64,000 nt of DNA from NCBI GenBank assembly GCA_942491805.1, contig CALOCG010000035.1:96408-160407 (forward strand). Direction: 5' to 3'. The stretch is from Nitrospinota bacterium (lineage in GTDB: Bacteria; Nitrospinota_A; UBA7883; JADGGD01). The first letter of the stretch is position 1. Each line of letters starts with the position of its first letter. The translations under genes were made by a program, and so were the position numbers. Shown one piece after another: positions 43,625-53,977 of the stretch. The notes under the pieces were generated by a model. The model worked only from the letters and a program-made list of their open reading frames with translations, did no database searches and had not been told where the DNA came from.

Positions 43625-44545
43625 ATGCGACGACTCGTCCTCCCCCTGTTCCTTACGATCCTTGCCGGATGCGGCGCCGTGGAGGATTTCCTGGCCCAAC
43701 AGCAGGCCGATCTCTCCAATTATTACGACACCGACCCCGACGCCCGCTCCTGCCAAACCGGCGCATTGAAAGAGTCGGAACGGCAAGAGGTTTTGACCCG
43801 TCTCAACGAAATCAGGAACCTGCACGGACTTCCCCCGGTCGCCTACGAATCGTCGTGGAACACGCAGGTCGACCAAGCGGCGCTCATTTTCGTCGCCAAC
43901 GGTTCGATCACCCACTATCCGAACGACCAGTGGCGTTGCTACACCGAAGACGGAGCGACCGGGGCGGCGGCGAGCAATATCTCTATACGAACGCTCGGCT
44001 CCGGGTTGAGCTCCTATTCCTTCATCGTCGGCTGGCTCATCGACAATCACGACGTGGCGGGCGGAACCGGCCATCGGCAATGGCTGCTCGATCCGTTCAT
44101 GTCGAAAATCGCCTTCGGACGGGTCGACGGACAACCGGCCGTCGACGACACCATGGTGACCGGCGCGGCGTTAAAAGTGATCGGCGCCACCCAGTCGGCG
44201 GGGAATATGGTCAACGATTTCGTCGCCTACCCCTACGGCGAATATCCCTCCGACCTGGTTGACACCGGCTACTGGCTCTCCTTCTCCCCCATCGCCGACA
44301 AAAACAGCTACGGCGGCGCCAACGTCTCTACCGACATGTCGGTCGCCACGGTGACGATGACCGACGAACATGGTTCGACCGTCGCCGTCAGCGCGACCGC
44401 CTACGAGAATACCGGAGGCGCCCCACTGGCGGTGGTTCAATGGAAAGCGGCGATTACGGCGGGGGTCACGTATACGGTGACGGTGACCGGCGCGAAGGTG
44501 AATGGGACGTATAAGAGCTATACGTATACGTTTAAGCTGGTGTAG
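43625..44545 (+). CDS. CAP/SCP-domain lipoprotein
   Basis: TILAGC lipobox; LNEIRNLHGL, GHRQWLLDP. Confidence 0.85.
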   Translation: MRRLVLPLFLTILAGCGAVEDFLAQQQADLSNYYDTDPDARSCQTGALKESERQEVLTRLNEIRNLHGLPPVAYESSWNTQVDQAALIFVANGSITHYPNDQWRCYTEDGATGAAASNISIRTLGSGLSSYSFIVGWLIDNHDVAGGTGHRQWLLDPFMSKIAFGRVDGQPAVDDTMVTGAALKVIGATQSAGNMVNDFVAYPYGEYPSDLVDTGYWLSFSPIADKNSYGGANVSTDMSVATVTMTDEHGSTVAVSATAYENTGGAPLAVVQWKAAITAGVTYTVTVTGAKVNGTYKSYTYTFKLV

Positions 44546-44795
44546 GGGGCTCCTATCCGGCTAACGCCCGAACGACGCCAGAAGCCGGAAGGCTTGCAAG
44601 CGCTCCGACCCGGAAATTATTCCATCTCCCCGTGGCTTCGGATTTTTCAGCCTCGGCTTCGATCCTGAGCGTTTCCGCATGGCGCCTTCACGTTTCGCCG
44701 CCACCGACTTCAACGTGCCGTCGGCTTCCCGGCGCTCGATAAAAAATTGGGGGCCGTCCTCGCCGTAGCCGAGAGGAGAAGGACAGGCGTAAGCC

Positions 44796-44835
44796 TGCTA
44801 GAATGGGCGTGTGTACCGAACAGCATTCAAGGAGG
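44796..44835 (+). promoter_or_regulatory. Extended -10 (TG-c-TAGAAT) and Shine-Dalgarno (AAGGAGG) of the selenoprotein gene
   Basis: tgctagaat at 44796-44804; aaggagg at 44829-44835. Confidence 0.65.
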
Positions 44836-44839
44836 GGTC

Positions 44840-45058
44840 ATGAAGGTATCGATTACCTACTGCGTGCAGTGAAACTACAAACCACGCGCCGCCAGTCTGG
44901 CGGCTAAGATTGAAAAAAAGTATGACGTGCCTGTCGAACTGGTCGGCGGGGGAGGGGGGATCTTCGACGTGATCGTCGATGGCGACCTGATCTTTTCCAA
45001 ACATGCCGCAGGGCGTTTCCCGGAAGAGGCCGAAGTGCTCGACCGGCTCGAAAACTGA
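44840..45058 (+). CDS. Rdx-family (SelW/SelT/SelH-like) selenoprotein, Sec at codon 11
   Basis: MKVSITYCVQ-U(TGA 44870-44872)-NYKPRAASLAAKIEKKYDVPVELVGGGGGIFDVIVDGDLIFSKHAAGRFPEEAEVLDRLEN*; CxxU, G-FDV-VDG-LIFSK and GRFP are Rdx hallmarks. Confidence 0.93.
44873..44904 (+). promoter_or_regulatory. Bacterial SECIS-like hairpin
   Basis: Stem GCCGCCA(44888-44894)/TGGCGGC(44898-44904), apical loop GTC beginning with G, 22 nt after the UGA. Confidence 0.75.
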
Positions 45059-45105
45059 AACTGACGCCCCTCCCCCATGGCGGGGACGGGAGAAGGGATG
45101 AACTC

Positions 45106-47256
45106 ATGTCGTCCGCCCAATCGACCACTCCCGGCGCCGCCGCCGACCGGGGACTCGCCCCCCTCTTGCGTCCCGACGGCGTCGCCGTCGTCGGCGCCTC
45201 GTCGGTAGAAGGCAAAGTAGGCTACGCCCTCGTCGACAACCTGATCCGGGCCGGATACCCCAAAGAGAAGATCTATCCGATCAACCCGAAAGGGGGGGAG
45301 ATTCTCGGGCTCCCCAGCTACGCTACCGTCGCCGCCGTCGGGAAGCCGATCGATCTGGCGGTCATCGCCGTCCCGACCGCCCGGGTCCTCGACGCCGTCA
45401 AAGAGGCGACCGGGGCCGGAGTCAAAGGGGTGGTGGTCATTACCGCCGGGTTCCGGGAAGTAGGACACGAAGGGGAGACGATGGAAAACGCCGTTGTCGA
45501 AGTCTGCCGGTCGCACGGAGTTCGGATGCTGGGGCCGAACTGCTTGGGGGTCATCAACACCCACCACAACCTGAACGCCTCCTTCGCCAAACGGCATCCC
45601 CGTCAAGGGGGGATCACGGTCATTTCCCAGTCGGGAGCGTTGCTCACCGCCATTCTCGACTACGCCGCCATGCGGCATCTGGGCATCTCCAAGATGGTCT
45701 CCATCGGCAACAAAGCCGACCTGAACGAAATCGATTTCTTGAAGACCTTCGCCGACGATCCCGAGACCGACGTCATCGTCGGCTATCTGGAGAGCATCGG
45801 CGACGGCGAGGCGTTCATTAAAGCCGCCGAAGAGGCCTCCACCAAAAAGCCGGTGGTTCTGATGAAAGTCGGCTCCACCGCCGCCGGACAGAAAGCGGCC
45901 AGTTCCCACACCGGAAGTCTGGCCGGGGCCGATGTCGCCTACGGCGCCGCCTTCTCCCGCTCGGGCGTCATTCGGGCCGACTCGTTCGAAGCCCTGTTCG
46001 ACAACGCCATGGCGCTGGCGTTACAACCGTTGCCCAAAGGGCCGAAAGTCGCCGTCATCACCAACGCCGGCGGCCCCGGCATCATGTGCGCCGACGCCAT
46101 CGAAAAAGAGGGGATGACCGTCGCCGAATTGTCGGGGGCCGGCGCCGCCGCTTTGGCCGCCACCCTGCCTGCCGCCGCTTCGGTCGGCAACCCGATCGAC
46201 GTGTTAGGCGACGCCGATCCAGAGCGATACGCCACCGCTCTCACCGCCGCTTTGCAGGACGACGCCGTCGACGCGGTGATCGTGATCCTGACTCCGCAAG
46301 CGATGACCCGCCCGCGCGAGACCGCCCTCGCTTTGGCCGACGCCGCCACCGGCGAAAAACCGGTGTTGGCCGTCTTCATGGGGGGGGAAGATGTCCTCCC
46401 GTCGCGGGCCGAACTGGTGGAACGAAAATTCCCCGCCTACACCGCCCCCGAACGGGCCGTGGCGGCGTTGAAAGCGATGTGGGGCCACGCCGCATGGAAG
46501 ATACGTCCCCCCCGGATCGTCACCCGCTATCCGGTCAACCGACGTCGCGCCGAGCGGATCATCGCCCGTCGCATTCGCGCCAACCGGTTGGAGGTTGGGG
46601 AGGCGCGGTCGAAAGAAATCCTGGAGGCCTACGGTTTCACCATCCCGCAAGGGGAGCTGGCCACCACCGCCGAGGAGGCGGTCGAAGTGGCCGAACGGGT
46701 CGGTTATCCGGTCGTGATGAAAATCGCCTCGCCCGACATTTTGCACAAGTCCGACTTCGGCGGCGTTCGGCTCGGTCTCGCCAACGCCGACATGGTGCTC
46801 GACGCCTACGACCTGATGATGCTTCGCATTCAGCGACGGGCGCCCGACGCTCGGATGGACGGCGTGTATGTGGAAAAGATGGCCGACCGGGGACGGGAGG
46901 TGATCGTCGGCATGACCCGCGATCCCCAATTCGGCCCCATGCTCATGTTCGGTCTCGGCGGCATTTTCGTCGAGGTGATGAAAGACGTCACCTTCCACTT
47001 GGCCCCCATCACCGCCGACGAAGCGATGCAGATGTTACGAGCCACCCGGTCGTACGGTCTGTTGAAAGGCGCCCGCGGCGAAAGCGGGGTCGATTTGGGC
47101 GCCGTGGCCGAAGGGTTGCAGCGAATCAGCCAGTTGGTCACCGACTTTCCTGAAATCGTCGAACTCGACATCAACCCCTTCATCGTGGGGAAAGTGGGGA
47201 GCGACCCTGTCGTCGCCGACGCCCGCATGACCCTTTCTCCGCGCAAGGAGCGTTAA
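45106..47256 (+). CDS. ADP-forming acyl/acetyl-CoA synthetase, fused alpha+beta (CoA-binding + ATP-grasp)
   Basis: AVVGASS, GPNCLG, SQSGAL, SIGNKAD, SSHTGSLAG (phospho-His), NAGGPG, NPIDVLGDA, HKSDFGGV, LDINP. Confidence 0.92.
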   Translation: MSSAQSTTPGAAADRGLAPLLRPDGVAVVGASSVEGKVGYALVDNLIRAGYPKEKIYPINPKGGEILGLPSYATVAAVGKPIDLAVIAVPTARVLDAVKEATGAGVKGVVVITAGFREVGHEGETMENAVVEVCRSHGVRMLGPNCLGVINTHHNLNASFAKRHPRQGGITVISQSGALLTAILDYAAMRHLGISKMVSIGNKADLNEIDFLKTFADDPETDVIVGYLESIGDGEAFIKAAEEASTKKPVVLMKVGSTAAGQKAASSHTGSLAGADVAYGAAFSRSGVIRADSFEALFDNAMALALQPLPKGPKVAVITNAGGPGIMCADAIEKEGMTVAELSGAGAAALAATLPAAASVGNPIDVLGDADPERYATALTAALQDDAVDAVIVILTPQAMTRPRETALALADAATGEKPVLAVFMGGEDVLPSRAELVERKFPAYTAPERAVAALKAMWGHAAWKIRPPRIVTRYPVNRRRAERIIARRIRANRLEVGEARSKEILEAYGFTIPQGELATTAEEAVEVAERVGYPVVMKIASPDILHKSDFGGVRLGLANADMVLDAYDLMMLRIQRRAPDARMDGVYVEKMADRGREVIVGMTRDPQFGPMLMFGLGGIFVEVMKDVTFHLAPITADEAMQMLRATRSYGLLKGARGESGVDLGAVAEGLQRISQLVTDFPEIVELDINPFIVGKVGSDPVVADARMTLSPRKER

Positions 47257-47259
47257 ACC

Positions 47260-49149
47260 ATGGCTCACGACAAAGCGGCGGTCGAGCTCGATACGAACTG
47301 GCGGACGACCTACGCCGACATGCTCTCGACTCCGTCACAAGCGGCCACCCGCATTAACTCCGGCGACCGGGTTTTCATCGGCACCGGTTGCGCCCAACCG
47401 TCGGCTCTGACCACCGCGCTCACTGATCGGGCGCCCAAGCTCAATGACGTCGAGATCGTCCATCTCCTCACTTTCGGCGACGCCCCCTACGCCACGCCGG
47501 AACTGGCCGATAAGTTCCGGGTCAACTCTTTCTTCGTCGCCGAGAACGTCAGGAGCGTCATCCAGCAAGGGTACGGTAGCTATACCCCGATTTTTCTCTC
47601 CGACATCCCCCGTCTTTTCACCTCCGGTCGGTTGCCGCTCGACGTCGCTCTGATACAGGTCTCTCTCCCCGACCATCGGGGACGGGTCAGCCTCGGGGTC
47701 TCGGTCGACATCGTCAAAGCCGCCACCCGGACCGCCAGCCTGGTGGTGGCGCAGGTGAACGCCAATATGCCTTACACCATGGGGAACAGCCTGATGTCGG
47801 TCCACGATCTCGATATCCTCGTCCCGTGCGACGAGCCGTTGGTGGAGCGGGTGCAGATGGAGCCGAACCCGACATCCGACGCCATCGGCCGGCGGATCGC
47901 TTCGCTTATCGGCCACGGCTCGACGTTGGAGCTCGGCATCGGGCGGATACCCCAGTCGATCTTGCGTCACCTGACCCACAAGCGGGATCTCGGCATCCAT
48001 TCGGAGATGATCACCGACGAGATCATCCCTCTTATCGAATCGGGGGTCGTCACCGGCGCAAGGAAACGGCACGACCGGGGGAAGGTGGTCGTATCTTTCG
48101 CCGTCGGAACCAAGAAGTTGTACGACTATATCGACCGGAACCCGGCCTTTTCGTTCCAGGCCACCGAGTATGTCAACGACCCGGCGGTCATCGCCCGGCA
48201 ACGCCGGATGGTGGCGATCAACATGGCCCTTGAGGTTGATCTGACCGGGCAGGTCTGCGCCGATTCGTTGGGAGATAAATTCTTCTCCGGCATCGGCGGG
48301 CAGGTCGATTTCAACCGTGGCGCGGCGGCCGCGCCCGGTGGGAAGGCGATCATCGCGCTCCCGGCCACCGCGTTGGGGGGGAGCGTCTCTCGCATCGTCG
48401 CCCGACTGACGCCGGGGGCCGGGGTGGTGACCACCCGTGGGGACGTCCATTACGTCGTCACCGAATACGGGGTCGCCTACCTCCACGGTAAGAGCGTTTC
48501 GGAACGGGCGTTGGCTCTTATCTCCATCGCCCACCCCGACTATCGGGCCGAGCTTATCGAAGCGGCCATCGAAGCCAAACTGATCCGCTCGGAGAAACGG
48601 GCCATCGAAGGGAAGGTGGTGCTGGCGCCGGCGGAGCTGAATACGTCGATGGTCTTGCGGGACGGAACGCAGATTCATTTCCGGTCGATCCAACCGACCG
48701 ACGAACCGAATATCCGCGACCTGATTCATCATCTGTCGCAGGAGACGATCTACTACCGGTTCATGAGCCACGTCACCCGGTTCGCCTACGAACAGATTCA
48801 AAACTTCGTCTACATCGACAACCGGAAAGAGGTGGCGGTGGTCGGCTATGTGGAGGAGGCTCACGGCGAATCGCTTATCGCGGTGGGGCGCTATTATCTC
48901 GACGAAGCGACGAACCGTGCGGAGGTCGCTTTCGTGGTACGGGACGAGTGGCAGAACAAGGGAATCGGTTCGTTCCTCTTGAACTATCTGGTGACTATCG
49001 CCCGACGGAACGGAATCAAAGGATTCACCGCCGAGGTGTTGCGCGAGAACAAACCGATGCAACGGGTCTTCCATAAGAAGAGCGATCTGCGCGTGCAAAG
49101 CCATCTGACCGAGGATGTCTATAGTTTCGAGCTCGACTTCCAAGAATAG
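47260..49149 (+). CDS. Acetyl-CoA hydrolase/CoA-transferase fused to a C-terminal GNAT acetyltransferase
   Basis: LELGIGRIP, GIHSEM, SGIGGQVDF, VVTEYGVAYLHGK; then FRSIQPTD, YRFM, AEVAFVVRDEWQNKGIGSFLL. Confidence 0.9.
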   Translation: MAHDKAAVELDTNWRTTYADMLSTPSQAATRINSGDRVFIGTGCAQPSALTTALTDRAPKLNDVEIVHLLTFGDAPYATPELADKFRVNSFFVAENVRSVIQQGYGSYTPIFLSDIPRLFTSGRLPLDVALIQVSLPDHRGRVSLGVSVDIVKAATRTASLVVAQVNANMPYTMGNSLMSVHDLDILVPCDEPLVERVQMEPNPTSDAIGRRIASLIGHGSTLELGIGRIPQSILRHLTHKRDLGIHSEMITDEIIPLIESGVVTGARKRHDRGKVVVSFAVGTKKLYDYIDRNPAFSFQATEYVNDPAVIARQRRMVAINMALEVDLTGQVCADSLGDKFFSGIGGQVDFNRGAAAAPGGKAIIALPATALGGSVSRIVARLTPGAGVVTTRGDVHYVVTEYGVAYLHGKSVSERALALISIAHPDYRAELIEAAIEAKLIRSEKRAIEGKVVLAPAELNTSMVLRDGTQIHFRSIQPTDEPNIRDLIHHLSQETIYYRFMSHVTRFAYEQIQNFVYIDNRKEVAVVGYVEEAHGESLIAVGRYYLDEATNRAEVAFVVRDEWQNKGIGSFLLNYLVTIARRNGIKGFTAEVLRENKPMQRVFHKKSDLRVQSHLTEDVYSFELDFQE

Positions 49150-49332: not shown

Positions 49333-52300
49333 CTACGACGGTCTGTTGAACGATGGCTGTTCTTTGAGCAGTTCTTCGAACCGTTCCGCCGGGACCGGCG
49401 GGGAGAAGAGGAACCCTTGCATCTGGTCGCACCCTTTCTCCTTGAGAAACTCCAACTGCTCGTAGGTTTCCACCCCTTCGGCCACCACCGACAATCCCAG
49501 CGAATGGGCCAGCGAGATGATCGCTTGGGCGATGACGGCGTCGTCCTGATCGCCGGGGATATCCCGCACGAACGACCGGTCGATCTTGAGCGTGTCGATG
49601 GGAAACCGTTTGAGGTAGGCCAACGACGAATAGCCGGTGCCGAAGTCATCGATGGCAATGCCGATACCCGACGCCGAGAGGCGGCGCAACGTTTCGATGG
49701 CGGCGTCGACGTCCCGCATGACGGTGCTCTCGGTGATTTCCATTTCGAGGTGGGCGGGGGCGACACCGCTGTCGGCCAGGGCGTCGGCGATCGATTCGAA
49801 AAGATTCTGCTCGGCGAACTGGAGGGCCGACAGGTTCACCGACACCACCAGATCGGTATGCCCCGCGTCGATCCAGCGGCGGGTCTGGGCCAAGGCTTCT
49901 TTTAAGGCGTAGATACCGATGGGGACGATCAGCCCGCTCTCTTCGGCCAGCGGGATGAACGTTCCGGGCGACACCAACCCGTGGGACGGGTGGCGCCAGC
50001 GGATGAGCGCCTCCATGCCCAAAACGGCGCCCGTGGAAAGCTCGAGCTTCGGTTGATAGTAGACGACGAACTCGTCCCGTTCGAGCCCCTTCCGCATATC
50101 CCGTTCCATGGTCAACGCGTCAAAACCGCTCCCCATGGTGGAGGTGTAGGTCTGATAGCCGTTCCCCCCCCGCTCTTTGGCTTGGCGGACGGCGAGGTCG
50201 GCGGTGCGGACCAGACTGTCGGCGTCGGCGCCGCTGGTCGGGTATTGCGACAGACCGACGCTGGCGGTGACGAATAGCTCTTCGTCGCCGACGACGAAGG
50301 GGGGGGCGAAGGTGGCGATCACCCTGCTGGCGAATCGACTGACGTCGCCCCCTTCCATATATTCGAGGATGAAGGTGAACTCGTCGCTCCCCCATCGGGC
50401 CAGCGTGTCTCCCTCCCCCAACAGGCCGGAGAGCCGAACGCCGACCTCCTGCAACAGGAGGTCTCCCACCAGATGTCCCAGTCCTTCGTTGATCTTCTTG
50501 AACCGGTCGATGGCGACGAAGACCACCGCCATTTTCCCGTGGGTTCGATGGGCCCACGCCAGCGATTGGTTGAGCCGGTCAAGGAAGAGGGGCCGGTTGG
50601 GAAGCCCGGTCAGGGCGTCGTGGTTGGCCTGATACCGAAGTTCCTCTTCACTTTTCTTCAGTTGCGACAGGTCGTGAAAGACGGAGATGTACTGCTTCGT
50701 CTTTCCGGCGTCGTCGCGAACGGCGGTGATGGTCGTCCATTGGGGATAGGCCTTGCCGTCTTTGCGACGGTTCCAAACCTCCCCTTCCCATTTCCCCTCT
50801 TCGATGAGAGCCCGCCACATTTCCTTATAGAAGGGGGCGTCGTGTCGGTCGGAGCGGAGAACGCGCGGGGTGCCGCCGAGGAGTTCCTCGGCCCGATAGC
50901 CGGTGATGTCGGTAACCGCCCGGTTGACGCTGGTGATAATCGACCGTTCGTCGGTGACCAGCACCCCTTCTGACGCATGGTCGAAAATGGTCGAGGCCAG
51001 CGCCAGTTGATCTTCAGCTTGTCGTCGCATCACTTCACGGCGGGCCGCTTCGATGATGTTCGCGCAAGTGCCGAGCGCCGGTTGCAGGAAGGTCACGTCG
51101 TCGGGCCGGTAGCCCATGGGGCGGTTGGCCAGTCCCAACACCCCGACGATCCGCGATCCGGCGAAGAGGGGGACGCCGAGGAAATTGTCGATGGGGGGAT
51201 GCCCCGACGGAAGCCCCTTCGCTTTCGGATCGTTCTTCGGATCGTTGGAGATGATCGGCTGACCGGTGGAGAGGAGCTCTCCGATCAACGAATCGGTTTT
51301 GCGAAAGACGATCTCTCTTCCCTCGTACGCTTTGGCGAAGGGGGCGAAGCGTTTTTCGGGGCTGGCGTCGGAAAAGGCTTTGACCTTGGCCACGAGCCCT
51401 CCCCCCTCTTCGACCACTTCGGCGACGAATCCGTGGAGGCTGTCGGTCAGTTCGAGCGCGTCGTCCAGAAAAGCGCCCAAGGTTTTGGCCTCCCCCTTGT
51501 TGGCGATATAGGCCTGCTGGGCCCGGCGGATGATGTCGAGCAGCCGGTTGGTCCGGGTCAGACTCTCCTCCGCCTCCCGCCGGAAGGTGATGTCGCGGCT
51601 GATCCCTCGGAAGCCGACGAACCGACCCTCCTCGTCTTCGAGAAGGAGACCGGAACATTCGAAGAGCGACGAAGCGCCGTTTTTGGCCACCTGCCATTGC
51701 ATCATGCCGGAGAAGGGGACGGGGGAGAGGAAGAGCTTTTGCGCCGCCTCCATCTGGGCGTCCCGGTGGGCGGGGGGGAAAAGATGGCCGAACGGCTTTC
51801 CGACGATAGCCGACGGGGGGTAGCCCAAAAGGTTTTCGACGTTCGGACTGGCGAAGGTATAGACGCCCCCCTCGTTCACTTCCCAGATCCAATCGCCCGC
51901 CTGATCGACCACTTCGCGGAATCGTTGTTCGGCAAGGGCCAGATCCTCTTGGGCGCGGCGTTGGCGGTTGGCTTGTCGATGAAGGGTGATCACCAGCAGG
52001 AGAAAGGTGGCGCCGCCGAAAAGAAGAAAGCCGTTAAAGAGGGAACGTTGGTGGCCGATCTCCCGTTCCATCATGAGACGGGCCTCCTCGGAGAGGGCGT
52101 CCAGATCGGCCATGATGCCGTTAAAGAGGAGATCGAACTCCCGGTCGTCGGGCTGCTGGTCCCTTGGCTTATCGCGGGCCTCCCAACGGAGGCGTCCCAA
52201 TGTCACGATCTGGTCGAGCCGACCCCGAAGCTCCTCCATGGCTGCGATCCGCTTACGTTCCGCCCGCTCCGCTATCGGGCCGGCGCCGGAGAGCGATGGG

Positions 52301-52578
52301 GGCGGCATCGTCTTAAGCAACTGTTCGCGAGCCTGATCGAACGAGCGCCACACCTGCTCCGAGGTATAGGTAGATTCTCCCGTCAGCGCTTCTTCGAGGG
52401 CCAGATGGGCTTTGGTCATGTCGGCTTGGATACGAACGAAAGCGTCGCGGGTCGGGAGGGTTCCCGCGAGCGTCGATTCCCACATCCGCTGGGTCGAGAC
52501 GAGGAGGGCCAACAAAGCGCCACCGACGACCAAGGCGATCAAGGCGATCGGTTCGAGCCCAAAGCGGGAGCGGTACAT
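49333..52578 (-). CDS. Membrane PAS-GAF-PAS-GGDEF-EAL c-di-GMP enzyme
   Basis: Two TMs; DWIWEV PAS; GAF GVPLFAGSRIVGVLGLAN; WEGEVWNRRKDG PAS; HDALTGLPNR, RWGSDEF; EAL, EITES, DDFGTGYSSL, EGVET; start at ATG 52578. Confidence 0.93.
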   Translation of the reverse strand: MYRSRFGLEPIALIALVVGGALLALLVSTQRMWESTLAGTLPTRDAFVRIQADMTKAHLALEEALTGESTYTSEQVWRSFDQAREQLLKTMPPPSLSGAGPIAERAERKRIAAMEELRGRLDQIVTLGRLRWEARDKPRDQQPDDREFDLLFNGIMADLDALSEEARLMMEREIGHQRSLFNGFLLFGGATFLLLVITLHRQANRQRRAQEDLALAEQRFREVVDQAGDWIWEVNEGGVYTFASPNVENLLGYPPSAIVGKPFGHLFPPAHRDAQMEAAQKLFLSPVPFSGMMQWQVAKNGASSLFECSGLLLEDEEGRFVGFRGISRDITFRREAEESLTRTNRLLDIIRRAQQAYIANKGEAKTLGAFLDDALELTDSLHGFVAEVVEEGGGLVAKVKAFSDASPEKRFAPFAKAYEGREIVFRKTDSLIGELLSTGQPIISNDPKNDPKAKGLPSGHPPIDNFLGVPLFAGSRIVGVLGLANRPMGYRPDDVTFLQPALGTCANIIEAARREVMRRQAEDQLALASTIFDHASEGVLVTDERSIITSVNRAVTDITGYRAEELLGGTPRVLRSDRHDAPFYKEMWRALIEEGKWEGEVWNRRKDGKAYPQWTTITAVRDDAGKTKQYISVFHDLSQLKKSEEELRYQANHDALTGLPNRPLFLDRLNQSLAWAHRTHGKMAVVFVAIDRFKKINEGLGHLVGDLLLQEVGVRLSGLLGEGDTLARWGSDEFTFILEYMEGGDVSRFASRVIATFAPPFVVGDEELFVTASVGLSQYPTSGADADSLVRTADLAVRQAKERGGNGYQTYTSTMGSGFDALTMERDMRKGLERDEFVVYYQPKLELSTGAVLGMEALIRWRHPSHGLVSPGTFIPLAEESGLIVPIGIYALKEALAQTRRWIDAGHTDLVVSVNLSALQFAEQNLFESIADALADSGVAPAHLEMEITESTVMRDVDAAIETLRRLSASGIGIAIDDFGTGYSSLAYLKRFPIDTLKIDRSFVRDIPGDQDDAVIAQAIISLAHSLGLSVVAEGVETYEQLEFLKEKGCDQMQGFLFSPPVPAERFEELLKEQPSFNRPS

Positions 52579-52732
52579 ATGGGGATAACTCTTTGCAGCT
52601 CTTTCGCCCAAAAGAAGTTGTTCATAACGATGATCAAAACCGACGACGTCCACCACGACGCTTACGAACGACCATTTTGCGACGAGTATGGCATCATTGC
52701 AAACAGAACCTTTACCGTCGGAGAGGAACGTC

Positions 52733-53977
52733 GTGGAGAATATACAAAGTCTCGTCGGTATCGTCACGCTGATCGGTGTCGCCTGGGGGATCAGCGAGAA
52801 CCGTCGCGCCGTAAAACCGAAGGGGGTCGTGGCCGGCGTGGCGCTTCAGCTGGTCATCGGGTTGGCTCTTTTAAAACTCCCGCTGATGGGGGAGCTTTTC
52901 TTGGCCTTAAACGGCATAGTACTCGCCGTCGACGCCGCCGCCACCGCCGGAACCTCGTTCGTCTTCGGCTACCTCGGCGGCGGGGATCTCCCTTTCGACG
53001 AGCCCTTCCCCGGCGCCGCGTTTGTGCTGGCGTTCAAAGGACTGCCGATCATTCTTGTCATGTCGGCCCTGTCGGCGTTGCTCTATCATTGGCGCATTTT
53101 GCCTTGGGTCATCAAAGGGATCGCGCGCGCTTTGACGGCGACCCTCGGCCTCGGCGGCGCCACCGGCTTGGCGACGGCGGCCAACGTCTTCGTCGGCATG
53201 GTCGAGGCGCCCCTGTTCATTCGCCCCTACCTTATGAGCCTCACCCGATCGGAGCTGTTCGTTCTGATGACCGGCGGGATGGCGACCATCGCCGGAACGA
53301 TGATGGTCCTATACGCCACCGTATTGGGACCGGTGATCCCCGACGCGATGGGGCATATCCTGACCGCGTCGCTTATCTCCGCCCCGGCTGCGGTGACGGT
53401 GGCGCTGATTATGATCCCCGAGACAGGAACCGTCACCGCCGGAACATCGTTCCCCCCGTCGGAAGCCGACTCCGCCATGGACGCCGTCACCCGGGGGACG
53501 AGCCAAGGGGTGAACCTGCTGATCCAGATCGTGGCGACGCTGGTGGTGTTGGTGGCGCTGGTCAGCCTCCTTAACCAGGGACTCGGCTTGGCAGGCGAGG
53601 CGGCCGGGGCTCCGTTGACCCTCGAACGACTGCTGGGGTGGCTCTTGGCGCCGGTGGCGTGGCTCCTCGGCGTCCCCTGGGGGGAAGCGATGGCCGCCGG
53701 ATCGCTGATGGGGGTGAAGGTGGCGTTGAACGAATTCCTGGCCTATTTGCAGATGGCCCACCTCCCCGCCGGGAGTCTCTCTTCTCGAACCGAGCTGATC
53801 ATGACCTACGCCCTCTGCGGCTTCGCCAACTTCGGGAGCCTCGGCATCATGATCGGCGGCATGGGCGCCATGGCCCCCGAACGGCGAGAAGAAATCGTCG
53901 GATTGGGATTGCGCTCCATCGTTTCGGGGAACGTGGCCAGTTTCATGTCGGGAGCGGTCATCGGCGTTTTAACCTGA
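52733..53977 (+). CDS. Concentrative nucleoside transporter (CNT/NupC family)
   Basis: GTSFVFG, ANVFVGMVEAP, GMATIAG, KVALNEFLAY, CGFANFGSLGI. Confidence 0.92.
   Translation: MENIQSLVGIVTLIGVAWGISENRRAVKPKGVVAGVALQLVIGLALLKLPLMGELFLALNGIVLAVDAAATAGTSFVFGYLGGGDLPFDEPFPGAAFVLAFKGLPIILVMSALSALLYHWRILPWVIKGIARALTATLGLGGATGLATAANVFVGMVEAPLFIRPYLMSLTRSELFVLMTGGMATIAGTMMVLYATVLGPVIPDAMGHILTASLISAPAAVTVALIMIPETGTVTAGTSFPPSEADSAMDAVTRGTSQGVNLLIQIVATLVVLVALVSLLNQGLGLAGEAAGAPLTLERLLGWLLAPVAWLLGVPWGEAMAAGSLMGVKVALNEFLAYLQMAHLPAGSLSSRTELIMTYALCGFANFGSLGIMIGGMGAMAPERREEIVGLGLRSIVSGNVASFMSGAVIGVLT

What the first reader, a model, noticed from the sequence alone, without database searches (positions are those of the whole stretch)
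44796..49149. Putative operon: selenoprotein + ADP-forming acyl-CoA synthetase + CoA-transferase-GNAT (redox-linked acyl-CoA/acetylation module)
Seen: one extended -10 upstream, then three co-directional genes with 47-bp and 3-bp gaps. The synthetase keeps the phospho-His (SHTG), the transferase keeps HSEM, and a GNAT sits on the transferase C-terminus. Known: Pat/YfiQ protein acetyltransferases fuse GNAT to an acyl-CoA-synthetase-like domain; here the same parts are rearranged over two proteins plus a CoA-transferase. Inference: a complex linking acetate/acyl-CoA substrate-level phosphorylation to lysine acetylation, possibly under Sec-based redox control. I do not know a described system with this three-gene layout.
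Basis: partly seen in the sequence, partly recalled or inferred. Interest (0 to 1): 0.75.

Follow-up and report, generated by a model that had tools for sequence, protein, structure and literature searches.

The report
ACD plus CoA-transferase–Pat-GNAT cassette
The three genes are real, but only the last two belong together: an ATP-yielding acyl-CoA synthetase and a CoA-transferase fused to a Pat-type protein acetyltransferase form a conserved, uncharacterised pair found in many bacterial phyla, and the selenoprotein gene is just a local neighbour.

Summary
These are a SelW/Rdx selenoprotein gene with an in-frame UGA and a SECIS-like hairpin, a fused alpha-beta ADP-forming acyl-CoA synthetase (ACD) with its phospho-His loop, and a CoA-transferase (HSEM Glu, GGQVDF) fused to a C-terminal GNAT. 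The gaps are 47 bp and 3 bp.

The three-gene unit does not hold up. None of 82 loci carrying the fusion has a SelW gene. None of 80 loci carrying SelW homologues has the cassette.

The ACD + CoA-transferase-GNAT pair is a tight unit. The ACD lies directly upstream on the same strand in 79 of 80 species-level genomes from about eight phyla. The two genes most often overlap by 4 nt, and the catalytic residues are invariant.

The GNAT belongs to the Pat clade; its best solved-structure matches are Pat, SlPatA and MtPat. In 29 of 56 informative loci the pair sits near acetate-CoA ligase (Acs), an HDAC/AcuC-type deacetylase or a CBS-pair protein.

Most likely this is an acetate/short-acyl-CoA node with its own Pat-like lysine acetyltransferase that switches off AMP-forming Acs. 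The domain layout is absent from the five described bacterial acetyltransferase types, and I found no literature on it. The mechanism is inferred, not shown.

The parts
44796..44804 (+). Extended -10-like motif TGCTAGAAT, 36 nt upstream of the selW start. It is a candidate promoter for selW, and possibly for read-through into the cassette.
   Evidence: Read directly from the sequence. The pattern occurs 3 times in the window against 1.18 expected. This is weak evidence and there is no -35 element.
44840..45058 (+). SelW/SelT/SelH (Rdx) family selenoprotein, 72 aa, CVQU motif. It is a neighbour of the cassette, not a conserved part of it.
   Evidence: Pfam Rdx 73.2 bits (cut-off 22.6). NCBIfam NF041051 93.2 bits (cut-off 88). 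Translation. No linkage to the cassette in 82 + 80 related loci.
44870..44872 (+). In-frame UGA read as selenocysteine (the U of CxxU).
   Evidence: The aligned codon is TGA in 79 of 80 homologous loci and TGC in one.
44888..44904 (+). SECIS-like hairpin GCCGCCA-GUC-UGGCGGC, starting 15 nt after the UGA.
   Evidence: Predicted fold. The same hairpin sits at the same offset in the homologues shown, with paired changes such as GCCGCG/CGCGGC and GCAGCC/GGCTGC.
45106..47256 (+). ADP-forming (NDP-forming) acyl-CoA synthetase, alpha and beta parts fused, 716 aa. The phospho-His is His268 (codon 45907-45909).
   Evidence: Pfam CoA_binding, Succ_CoA_lig, Ligase_CoA_2 and ATP-grasp_5. Best PDB match is 8wzu, 4-hydroxybutyrate-CoA ligase [ADP-forming], at 532 bits. 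His268 is present in 59 of 59 cassette ACDs.
47302..48585 (+). CoA-transferase domain of the fusion protein (about residues 15-442, AcetylCoA_hydro N and C domains). The catalytic Glu is Glu249 (codon 48004-48006) and the GGQVDF motif is at residues 346-351.
   Evidence: Pfam. PDB 4-hydroxybutyrate CoA-transferases 9vag, 3eh7, 2oas and 3gk7. Glu249 aligns with residue 238, the Glu of HSEM, in the 3gk7 chain. E249 and GGQ.DF are present in 61-62 of 62 orthologues.
48628..49149 (+). Pat-type GNAT domain of the fusion protein (residues 457-629, plus the stop codon). Features are the YYRF motif, the catalytic Glu555 in AEVAF (codon 48922-48924), and the acetyl-CoA loop Q565-N-K-G-I-G570.
   Evidence: Best PDB matches are Pat 9it0/9isq, SlPatA 4nxy, MtPat 4ava and MsPat 4orf. 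E555, Q565 and G570 are present in 62 of 62 orthologues.

Best explanation
The region holds two separate things.

1. **A stand-alone selenoprotein gene.** It encodes a SelW/Rdx selenoprotein with its own ribosome-binding site, a candidate promoter, a UGA codon and a SECIS hairpin.

2. **A conserved, translationally coupled two-gene cassette.**
   - The first protein is a catalytically intact ADP-forming acyl-CoA synthetase: acyl-CoA + ADP + Pi <-> acid + ATP + CoA, via phospho-His268.
   - The second is a catalytically intact family-I CoA-transferase (Glu249) fused through a short linker of about 15 residues to a Pat-clade GNAT (Glu555).

Proposed mechanism (inferred):
- The CoA-transferase moves CoA between acetyl-CoA/acetate and another short-chain acid. 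The ACD converts the thioester into ATP, or runs in reverse. Together they would form a transferase/synthetase cycle like the ASCT/SCS cycle.
- The fused GNAT uses acetyl-CoA to acetylate the A10-motif lysine of AMP-forming acyl-CoA synthetases (Acs). This would shut down the ATP->AMP route while the ADP-forming route runs, and so avoid a futile cycle.
- Where an HDAC/AcuC-type deacetylase is encoded alongside, it would reverse the mark.

Shown here: gene structure, domain identities, intact catalytic motifs, conserved pairing, and the recurrent neighbours. Inferred: substrates, direction of flux, the protein target of the GNAT, and any physical complex.
For: **The pairing is conserved**
- The ACD lies directly upstream on the same strand in 79 of 80 genome loci. 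The record titles span Nitrospinota, Planctomycetota, Verrucomicrobiota/Lentisphaerae/Kiritimatiellae, Desulfobacterota, Myxococcota, Acidobacteriota and Krumholzibacteriota.
- The same layout is present in the closest relative, at 76% identity.
- The commonest distance from the ACD stop to the fusion start is -4 nt.

**The catalytic residues are intact**
- ACD His268 is present in 59 of 59 sequences, whereas Pat lacks it.
- E249 and GGQ.DF, and E555, Q565 and G570, are present in 61-62 of 62 orthologues. Mean pairwise identity is 72% for the CoA-transferase domain and 65% for the GNAT domain.

**The GNAT belongs to the Pat clade**
- The best NCBIfam match for the GNAT part is mycobacterial Pat.
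- Among 38 large proteins from the top GNAT-domain hits in the representative library, 29 carry a CoA-transferase domain and 6 carry an ACD-like domain.

**Neighbours point to acetylation control of Acs**
- 29 of 56 loci with enough upstream flank have an HDAC-family gene, a CBS-pair gene or an AMP-forming acyl-CoA synthetase within about 8 kb.
- The order HDAC-CBS-ACD-fusion, all co-directional, occurs in 13 Desulfobacterota-type loci.
- True AcsA (TIGR02188, 993 bits against a cut-off of 725) with a monocarboxylate MFS transporter sits next to the cassette in about 12 PVC-type loci.
- A divergent Acs-like gene lies directly upstream in Myxococcota loci.
- These Acs proteins keep the ...SGK... 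lysine motif.
- The logic parallels acsA/acuABC and Pat as summarised in PMC8556138.
Against: - No biochemical data exist for any member of the family; five literature searches aimed at the fusion or the pair found nothing on it.
- The 64-kb window itself contains no Acs, HDAC or AcuB-like CBS gene, so the proposed target and eraser are not local here.
- The informative neighbourhoods fall into a few lineages, so they represent few independent events.
- About 65% identity across phyla is more typical of a core metabolic enzyme or a horizontally transferred cassette than of a regulator.
- No curated equivalog cut-off is reached for either protein, so substrates are unknown.
- Divergent CoA-transferase-GNAT subfamilies occur without an adjacent ACD, so the GNAT function does not require the ACD in general.
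Confidence: 0.55

Rival explanations
1. Purely metabolic module. The ACD and the CoA-transferase form a short-chain acyl-CoA/acid cycle that yields ATP. The GNAT domain is not a protein acetyltransferase. It acts instead as an acetyl-CoA-binding or allosteric domain, or acetylates a small molecule.
For: - Both enzymes keep their catalytic residues.
- Their nearest solved relatives are genuine enzymes of one substrate class: ADP-forming 4-hydroxybutyrate-CoA ligase 8wzu and the 4-hydroxybutyrate CoA-transferases.
- Cross-phylum identity is very high.
- The cassette in the window has no acetylation-related neighbours.
Against: - The GNAT keeps the Pat-type catalytic Glu, the acetyl-CoA loop and the YYRF motif in essentially all orthologues.
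- Its closest solved relatives are all protein lysine acetyltransferases.
- AcsA and HDAC-type deacetylases recur beside the cassette.
- In sister subfamilies the CoA-transferase motifs decay while the GNAT motifs persist. This marks the GNAT as the constant, selected activity.
Confidence: 0.25
2. Split-Pat holoenzyme. The ACD and the fusion protein form a stable complex in which the ACD plays, in trans, the role of Pat's N-terminal domain. It would act as the regulator, or as the acetylation target, of the GNAT. Flux through substrate-level phosphorylation would then directly gate acetyltransferase activity.
For: - The ACD is homologous to the Pat N-terminal domain across the whole length (316 bits).
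- Co-occurrence is 79 of 80 loci, with overlapping stop and start codons.
- The GNAT clade is otherwise found fused to ACD-like domains.
Against: - There is no evidence of interaction.
- L077 has HDAC-CBS-fusion with no ACD within 8 kb.
- Divergent fusion subfamilies occur without an ACD.
- The ACD is closer to true enzymes than to Pat (532 against 316 bits).
Confidence: 0.15
3. All three genes, including the selenoprotein, form one redox-controlled acyl-CoA/acetylation complex.
For: - In this genome the genes are co-directional with a 47-bp gap and no terminator between selW and the ACD.
- Co-transcription here is therefore possible.
Against: - No SelW homologue lies near the cassette in 82 loci, including the closest relative.
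- No cassette lies near SelW in 80 loci.
- selW has its own ribosome-binding site and a candidate promoter.
Confidence: 0.05

Closest known systems
Pat / YfiQ / PatZ (type I) and SlPatA (type II) bacterial lysine acetyltransferases
   Same: - The GNAT domain is of the same clade. It has the YYRF motif, the AE(V/F)A catalytic Glu and the Q/RxxGxG loop, and its best PDB matches are these proteins.
- It is associated with an NDP-forming acyl-CoA synthetase module and with Acs.
   Different: - The GNAT is fused to a family-I CoA-transferase, not to an ACD-like domain.
- The ACD is a separate protein and keeps the catalytic His that Pat has lost.
- This architecture is not among the five types listed in PMC8556138.
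Bacillus subtilis acsA / acuABC (AcuA GNAT, AcuB CBS protein, AcuC HDAC-type deacetylase)
   Same: In related genomes the cassette is preceded by an HDAC-family gene and a CBS-pair gene, or lies next to acsA. This gives the same writer/eraser/target logic (PMC8556138).
   Different: - The writer here is a Pat-clade GNAT fused to a CoA-transferase, and an ACD is always present.
- The HDAC and CBS proteins reached no NCBIfam AcuC or AcuB model.
- None of these neighbours is in the window.
Archaeal/bacterial ADP-forming acetyl-CoA synthetase family (ACD; e.g. Nitrosopumilus 4-hydroxybutyrate-CoA ligase 8wzu, Ca. Korarchaeum ACD1 4xyl)
   Same: It has the same five-domain make-up, with alpha-beta fused in the same order as 8wzu, and the same SHTG phospho-His loop.
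   Different: - It scores below every curated equivalog cut-off: TIGR02717 554 against 567, NF045493 639 against 1300.
- It is obligately paired with the CoA-transferase-GNAT gene.
4-hydroxybutyrate / butyryl-CoA:acetate CoA-transferases (AbfT 3gk7, 9vag) and the ASCT/SCS cycle
   Same: - The fold family, the catalytic Glu in HSEM and the GGQxDF motif are the same.
- Pairing a CoA-transferase with an NDP-forming synthetase mirrors the acetate:succinate CoA-transferase / succinyl-CoA synthetase cycle (from established knowledge).
   Different: - It carries a C-terminal GNAT.
- TIGR03948 scores 286 against a cut-off of 675.
- The substrate is unknown.
Bacterial SelW-like Rdx selenoproteins (NF041051, PF10262)
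   Same: It has the CxxU motif, the expected length, an HMM score above the cut-off, a UGA codon and a downstream hairpin.
   Different: Nothing notable. It is an ordinary member of the family that happens to lie upstream of the cassette.

Membership tests
SelW/SelT/SelH (Rdx) selenoprotein | Profile match above the curated cut-off | tested here: met
   PF10262 scores 73.2 against a cut-off of 22.6. NF041051 scores 93.2 against 88, and TIGR02174 scores 61.6 against 34.2.
SelW/SelT/SelH (Rdx) selenoprotein | N-terminal CxxU redox motif, with U encoded by an in-frame UGA followed by a SECIS hairpin | tested here: met
   CVQ-UGA at 44861-44872. Hairpin at 44888-44904. TGA at the aligned codon in 79 of 80 homologous loci, with a conserved hairpin showing paired changes. 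The Sec-insertion genes (selABCD) were not looked for, and the only tRNA in the window is tRNA-Glu.
NDP-forming acyl-CoA synthetase (ACD) | CoA-binding, Succ_CoA_lig, Ligase_CoA and ATP-grasp domains | tested here: met
   All were found, in the alpha-beta order. The alignment to 8wzu is full length.
NDP-forming acyl-CoA synthetase (ACD) | Catalytic phospho-histidine loop (SHTG) | tested here: met
   ASSHTGSLAG, with His268, aligned to the same loop in 8wzu, 2csu and 4xyl and absent in Pat 9it0. Present in 59 of 59 orthologues.
NDP-forming acyl-CoA synthetase (ACD) | Assignment to a specific substrate (acetate, 4-hydroxybutyrate or 3-hydroxypropionate) by a curated equivalog | tested here: not met
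   TIGR02717 scores 554.2 against a cut-off of 567.15. NF045493 scores 638.6 against 1300. NF045494 scores 533 against 1200.
Family-I CoA-transferase, AcetylCoA_hydro / 4-hydroxybutyrate CoA-transferase type | N- and C-terminal AcetylCoA_hydro domains, the catalytic Glu and the GGQxDF motif | tested here: met
   PF02550 and PF13336. E249 aligns with residue 238 (the Glu of HSEM) in the 3gk7 chain, and GGQVDF is present. Present in 61-62 of 62 orthologues.
Family-I CoA-transferase, AcetylCoA_hydro / 4-hydroxybutyrate CoA-transferase type | Equivalog-level substrate assignment (butyryl-CoA:acetate or succinyl-CoA:acetate) | tested here: not met
   TIGR03948 scores 286 against a cut-off of 675. 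TIGR03458 scores 113 against 659.
Pat-type protein lysine acetyltransferase | GNAT domain with the Pat-clade motifs (YYRF, catalytic Glu, Q/RxxGxG/A) | tested here: met
   Alignments to 9it0, 4nxy and 4ava. Conservation across orthologues.
Pat-type protein lysine acetyltransferase | [quoted passage not shown] | tested here: not met
   The fusion partner is a CoA-transferase with intact motifs. The ACD is a separate protein and keeps its His. Type definitions are from PMC8556138. NF058543 scores 89 against a cut-off of 460.
Pat-type protein lysine acetyltransferase | Acetylates the A10-motif lysine of AMP-forming acyl-CoA synthetases | not testable with these tools
   Only indirect support is available: AcsA or Acs-like genes with the SGK motif lie next to the cassette in 16 loci.
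acuABC-like writer/eraser locus | HDAC-type deacetylase and CBS protein encoded alongside the acetyltransferase | tested here: inconclusive
   Present in related loci: HDAC in 21 and CBS in 14 of 82. Absent from this window. There were no AcuB or AcuC equivalog matches.

The most novel reading that the evidence does not exclude
The ACD and the CoA-transferase-GNAT protein form one holoenzyme. This would be a sixth, so far undescribed class of bacterial lysine acetyltransferase, in which two catalytically active CoA-ester enzymes (substrate-level phosphorylation and CoA transfer) feed or gate a Pat-type GNAT. Acetate/acyl-CoA flux would then be written directly onto Acs and perhaps other proteins. 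The layout could also resemble the active ancestor from which Pat's dead ACD-like domain derives.
Probability: 0.25. Interest if true: 0.75.

Novelty: new variant of a known kind. Interest (0 to 1): 0.55.

Why it matters
Acetylation of acetyl-CoA synthetase by Pat or AcuA is the standard example of metabolic control by lysine acetylation in bacteria. It has been studied almost entirely in Proteobacteria, Firmicutes and Actinobacteria.

This cassette is a highly conserved alternative. It is found in environmentally dominant but poorly studied phyla (Planctomycetota, Verrucomicrobiota/Lentisphaerae/Kiritimatiellae, Desulfobacterota, Nitrospinota, Myxococcota).

If the inference holds, three things follow:
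- It adds a new architecture to the classification of bacterial acetyltransferases.
- It ties the acetate switch (ADP-forming against AMP-forming routes) to one operon.
- It gives genome annotators a functional name for many proteins now labelled only 'GNAT family N-acetyltransferase'.

The result is also a caution: a rare neighbour, here the selenoprotein, can make an ordinary conserved pair look like a novel three-gene system.

Tried and rejected
- **Structure prediction.** The AlphaFold2 model of the fusion protein, built from a 20-sequence alignment, was poor (mean pLDDT 67.7, pTM 0.56, residues 322-417 below 50). I did not use it for domain orientation or for a fold search.
- **Literature.** Five searches aimed at the fusion or the pair returned nothing relevant, and one further query was rejected for syntax. 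A search for the paper behind the Pat structures 9it0/9isq also found nothing.
- **Source of the window.** A look-up of the window's own contig failed because the protein is not on record. The organism was not identified; the nearest relatives are a JGI metagenome contig (76%) and a Nitrospinota MAG (69%).
- **RNA families.** The Rfam scan found only a tRNA.
- **A false lead.** A marginal SelW-like match in L060 lies inside a 334-aa unrelated ORF and is a chance hit.
- **ACD adjacency against catalytic Glu.** I tested whether ACD adjacency tracks retention of the CoA-transferase catalytic Glu in divergent subfamilies. It does not: no ACD neighbour in 3 Glu-retaining or 2 Glu-lacking subfamilies (one Glu-retaining locus, L170, is a 2.8-kb contig with almost no flank, so it is uninformative). 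The ACD pairing is specific to the window's orthologous group.
- **Descent from Pat.** I considered that the cassette ACD might be a Pat-like dead domain. I rejected this because of the invariant His268 and the closer similarity to true ACDs.
Full report
**1. What is in the sequence**

- *The selenoprotein gene.*
  - It is a 72-codon ORF at 44840-45058, preceded by AGGAGG.
  - It reads MKVSITYCVQ-UGA-NYKPRAASL..., with an in-frame TGA at 44870-44872.
  - With the UGA read as Cys/Sec it matches Pfam Rdx (73.2 bits) and the NCBIfam SelT/SelW/SelH equivalog NF041051 (93.2 bits against a cut-off of 88).
  - A hairpin GCCGCCA-GUC-UGGCGGC begins 15 nt after the UGA.
  - In 80 metagenomic loci with homologues of 51-69% identity, the aligned codon is TGA in 79 and TGC in one.
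  - The hairpin recurs at the same offset in the homologues shown, with paired substitutions.
  - It is therefore a genuine bacterial selenoprotein gene.
- *The candidate promoter.* TGCTAGAAT at 44796-44804 fits an extended -10. Such a pattern occurs 3 times in the window against 1.18 expected, so it is only a candidate.
- *The ACD.*
  - After a 47-bp spacer with no terminator-like site comes a 716-aa protein at 45106-47256.
  - It carries all the domains of an ADP-forming acyl-CoA synthetase in alpha-beta order.
  - It aligns end to end with the Nitrosopumilus ADP-forming 4-hydroxybutyrate-CoA ligase 8wzu (532 bits).
  - It keeps the phospho-His loop ASSHTGSLAG. The Pat structures 9it0/9isq, which also align along the whole length (316 bits), have lost that loop.
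- *The fusion protein.*
  - Three bases further on starts a 629-aa protein at 47260-49149.
  - Residues of about 15-442 are a family-I CoA-transferase. The best PDB matches are 4-hydroxybutyrate CoA-transferases.
  - Glu249 in LGIHSEM aligns with residue 238, the Glu of HSEM, in the 3gk7 chain, and GGQVDF is present.
  - Residues 457-629 are a GNAT. Its best solved relatives are the protein acetyltransferases Pat (9it0, 9isq), SlPatA (4nxy), MtPat (4ava) and MsPat (4orf).
  - The GNAT has the YYRF motif, the catalytic Glu in AEVAF (Glu555) and the acetyl-CoA loop QNKGIG.

**2. Which genes belong together**

- *How common the fusion is.* The fusion protein has thousands of relatives. The best 120 clusters are all about 626 aa, all carry the same three Pfam domains, and are 63-76% identical to the window protein.
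- *Forward test.*
  - A scan of one genome per GTDB species returned 80 loci whose record titles span about eight phyla.
  - In 79 of them an ACD orthologue (50-69% identity) lies immediately upstream on the same strand. The exception is L077.
  - The commonest distance from the ACD stop to the fusion start is -4 nt, an overlapping stop and start.
  - The closest relative (76%) has the same pair, with only 88 bp between the preceding gene and the ACD.
- *SelW is absent from these loci.* No SelW homologue was found in any of the 82 loci, even at E <= 10. The single marginal hit lies inside an unrelated 334-aa ORF.
- *Reverse test.* Among the 80 loci with SelW homologues, none has the cassette. 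Two carry a distant ACD-family gene (31-36% identity) on the opposite strand; the one examined (L090) matches only the alpha-type domains.

The unit is therefore the two-gene cassette. The selenoprotein is a neighbour specific to this genome. Co-transcription here remains possible but has no comparative support.

**3. What the cassette's surroundings say**

I clustered the ORFs of the related loci and checked the clusters against Pfam and NCBIfam. Three recurrent contexts emerged.

- In 13 Desulfobacterota-type loci the order is HDAC-family deacetylase, CBS-pair protein, ACD, fusion, all on one strand. L077 has the same order without the ACD.
- In about 12 Verrucomicrobiota/Lentisphaerae/Kiritimatiellae-type loci a true acetate-CoA ligase AcsA (TIGR02188, 993 bits against 725) sits next to the ACD. 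A monocarboxylate MFS transporter (SfMCT model, 347 against 320) accompanies it, and a more distant HDAC-family match is often nearby.
- In Myxococcota-type loci such as L011 and L024 a divergent Acs-like AMP-forming enzyme lies directly upstream on the same strand.

Both kinds of Acs keep the ...SGK... lysine motif, which I know to be the Pat/AcuA target site. Overall, 29 of 56 loci with at least 2.5 kb of upstream flank have at least one of these genes within about 8 kb. The window itself has none in 64 kb.

This is the writer/eraser/target logic of acsA-acuABC and Pat-CobB, as summarised in PMC8556138.

**4. Conservation within the cassette**

- Across 62 orthologues the mean pairwise identity is 72% for the CoA-transferase part, 65% for the GNAT and 43% for the 14-residue linker.
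- E249, GGQ.DF, E555, Q565 and G570 are present in 61-62 of 62 orthologues. His268 of the ACD is present in 59 of 59.
- All three catalytic centres are therefore under purifying selection.
- A search of the 50%-identity representative library with the GNAT domain alone found 11,878 relatives.
- Of 38 large proteins among the top hits, 29 carry a CoA-transferase domain and 6 an ACD-like domain, the Pat architectures.
- In the divergent CoA-transferase-GNAT subfamilies the catalytic Glu is replaced in 10 of 27 (by W, A, P, Q, S, D or C). The GGQxDF motif is often degenerate, while the GNAT motifs stay intact.
- This mirrors the loss of the catalytic His in Pat's ACD-like domain. It argues that the GNAT is the constant, selected activity, and that the CoA-ester-binding partner can act as a sensor.
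- Five of these divergent subfamilies were looked up. None has an ACD neighbour, whether or not the Glu is kept, although one locus (L170) has almost no flank. The ACD pairing is a property of the window's orthologous group.

**5. Most likely mechanism**

*Shown:*
- An intact ACD and an intact CoA-transferase are co-expressed from overlapping or nearly abutting genes.
- A Pat-clade GNAT is fused to the CoA-transferase.

*Inferred:*
- The two CoA enzymes form a transferase/synthetase cycle that interconverts short-chain acyl-CoAs, acetate and ATP.
- This is analogous to the ASCT/SCS cycle (established knowledge, not tested here).
- The GNAT acetylates AMP-forming Acs, so that the ATP->AMP activation route is off while the ADP-forming route runs.
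- HDAC-type deacetylases reverse this where they are present.

I put about 0.55 on this combined reading.

*Rivals:*
- A purely metabolic module with a non-protein-directed GNAT (0.25).
- A split-Pat holoenzyme in which the ACD regulates, or is the target of, the GNAT (0.15).

**6. Comparison with what is known, and novelty**

- The selenoprotein and each enzymatic domain are ordinary members of known families.
- The combination is not described. The 2021 review of bacterial lysine acetylation lists five GNAT architectures, and none has a CoA-transferase domain or an active ACD partner.
- Five full-text searches aimed at the fusion or the pair found nothing.
- Where a source names these proteins at all, it is generically: 'GNAT family N-acetyltransferase', 'acyl-CoA hydrolase/GNAT superfamily N-acetyltransferase', or once '4-hydroxybutyrate CoA-transferase'.
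- No curated equivalog cut-off is met by either protein.
- I file it as a new variant of a known kind: a Pat-like acetylation module. It is widespread and uncharacterised.
It is better supported as a real system because of the very strong conservation.

**7. Limits**

- No experiment or expression data were available.
- The structure model was too poor to use.
- The source organism was not identified.
- The neighbourhood evidence comes from a few lineages.
- The literature library does not cover subscription journals.

Noticed in passing
window 44870-44904; loci L083-L162: The bacterial SECIS-like hairpin of this SelW subfamily (GCNGCC-AGUYU-GGCNGC, 15-18 nt after the UGA) recurs in the homologues inspected, with paired changes. 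TGA is kept in 79 of 80 homologues. It overlaps the codons for AASLAA, so RNA and protein constraints are mixed.
   Followed up: partly
L090 3103-4239 (-) and L159 2985-3968 (-): Two SelW-homologue loci carry a distant ACD-family gene (31-36% identity) convergent just downstream of selW. Pfam on the L090 copy found only alpha-type domains (CoA_binding, Succ_CoA_lig). It is probably coincidence, but it is the only hint of any SelW/ACD-family proximity elsewhere.
   Followed up: partly
L013 3946-5808 and 8001-9848: A Myxococcota MAG has two CoA-transferase-GNAT paralogues (47% and 65% identical to the window protein) flanking one ACD gene. Both keep the catalytic Glu and the GNAT motifs.
   Followed up: partly
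L077 6069-9848: This is the only one of the 80 genome loci without an ACD next to the fusion gene. It still has the HDAC-CBS-fusion order, so the acetylation-related genes can stay together without the ACD.
   Followed up: no
proteins P0126, P0128, P0147, P0161, P0168, P0207, P0218, P0236, P0237, P0270: Divergent CoA-transferase-GNAT subfamilies have lost the CoA-transferase catalytic Glu, and often the GGQxDF motif, while keeping the GNAT motifs. This parallels the dead ACD-like domain of Pat.
   Followed up: partly
L082 7035-8461 (-): In the closest relative of the cassette (76% identity), a weak NiFeSe-hydrogenase family match and a HycI maturation protease gene lie about 2 kb downstream.
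   Followed up: no
window 49333-52767 (-): A large PAS-GAF-PAS-GGDEF-EAL signalling protein (1144 aa) converges on the cassette, with a 183-bp spacer. It has no conserved relation to the cassette in the other loci.
   Followed up: no
window 43625-44545 (+): A 306-aa protein with a hydrophobic N-terminus ending LAGC (lipoprotein-like by eye) and a weak CAP/SCP-domain match (PF00188, 32 bits) lies upstream of selW. The 294-bp stretch between it and selW (44546-44839) holds only a 50-aa minus-strand ORF, which is probably spurious.
   Followed up: no
L006, L009, L012, L037, L054 and others: In PVC-type loci, AcsA is followed by an MFS transporter. The one transporter tested (L037) matches the L-lactate/monocarboxylate transporter model SfMCT above its cut-off. 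This suggests an acetate/monocarboxylate uptake unit placed next to the ACD cassette.
   Followed up: partly
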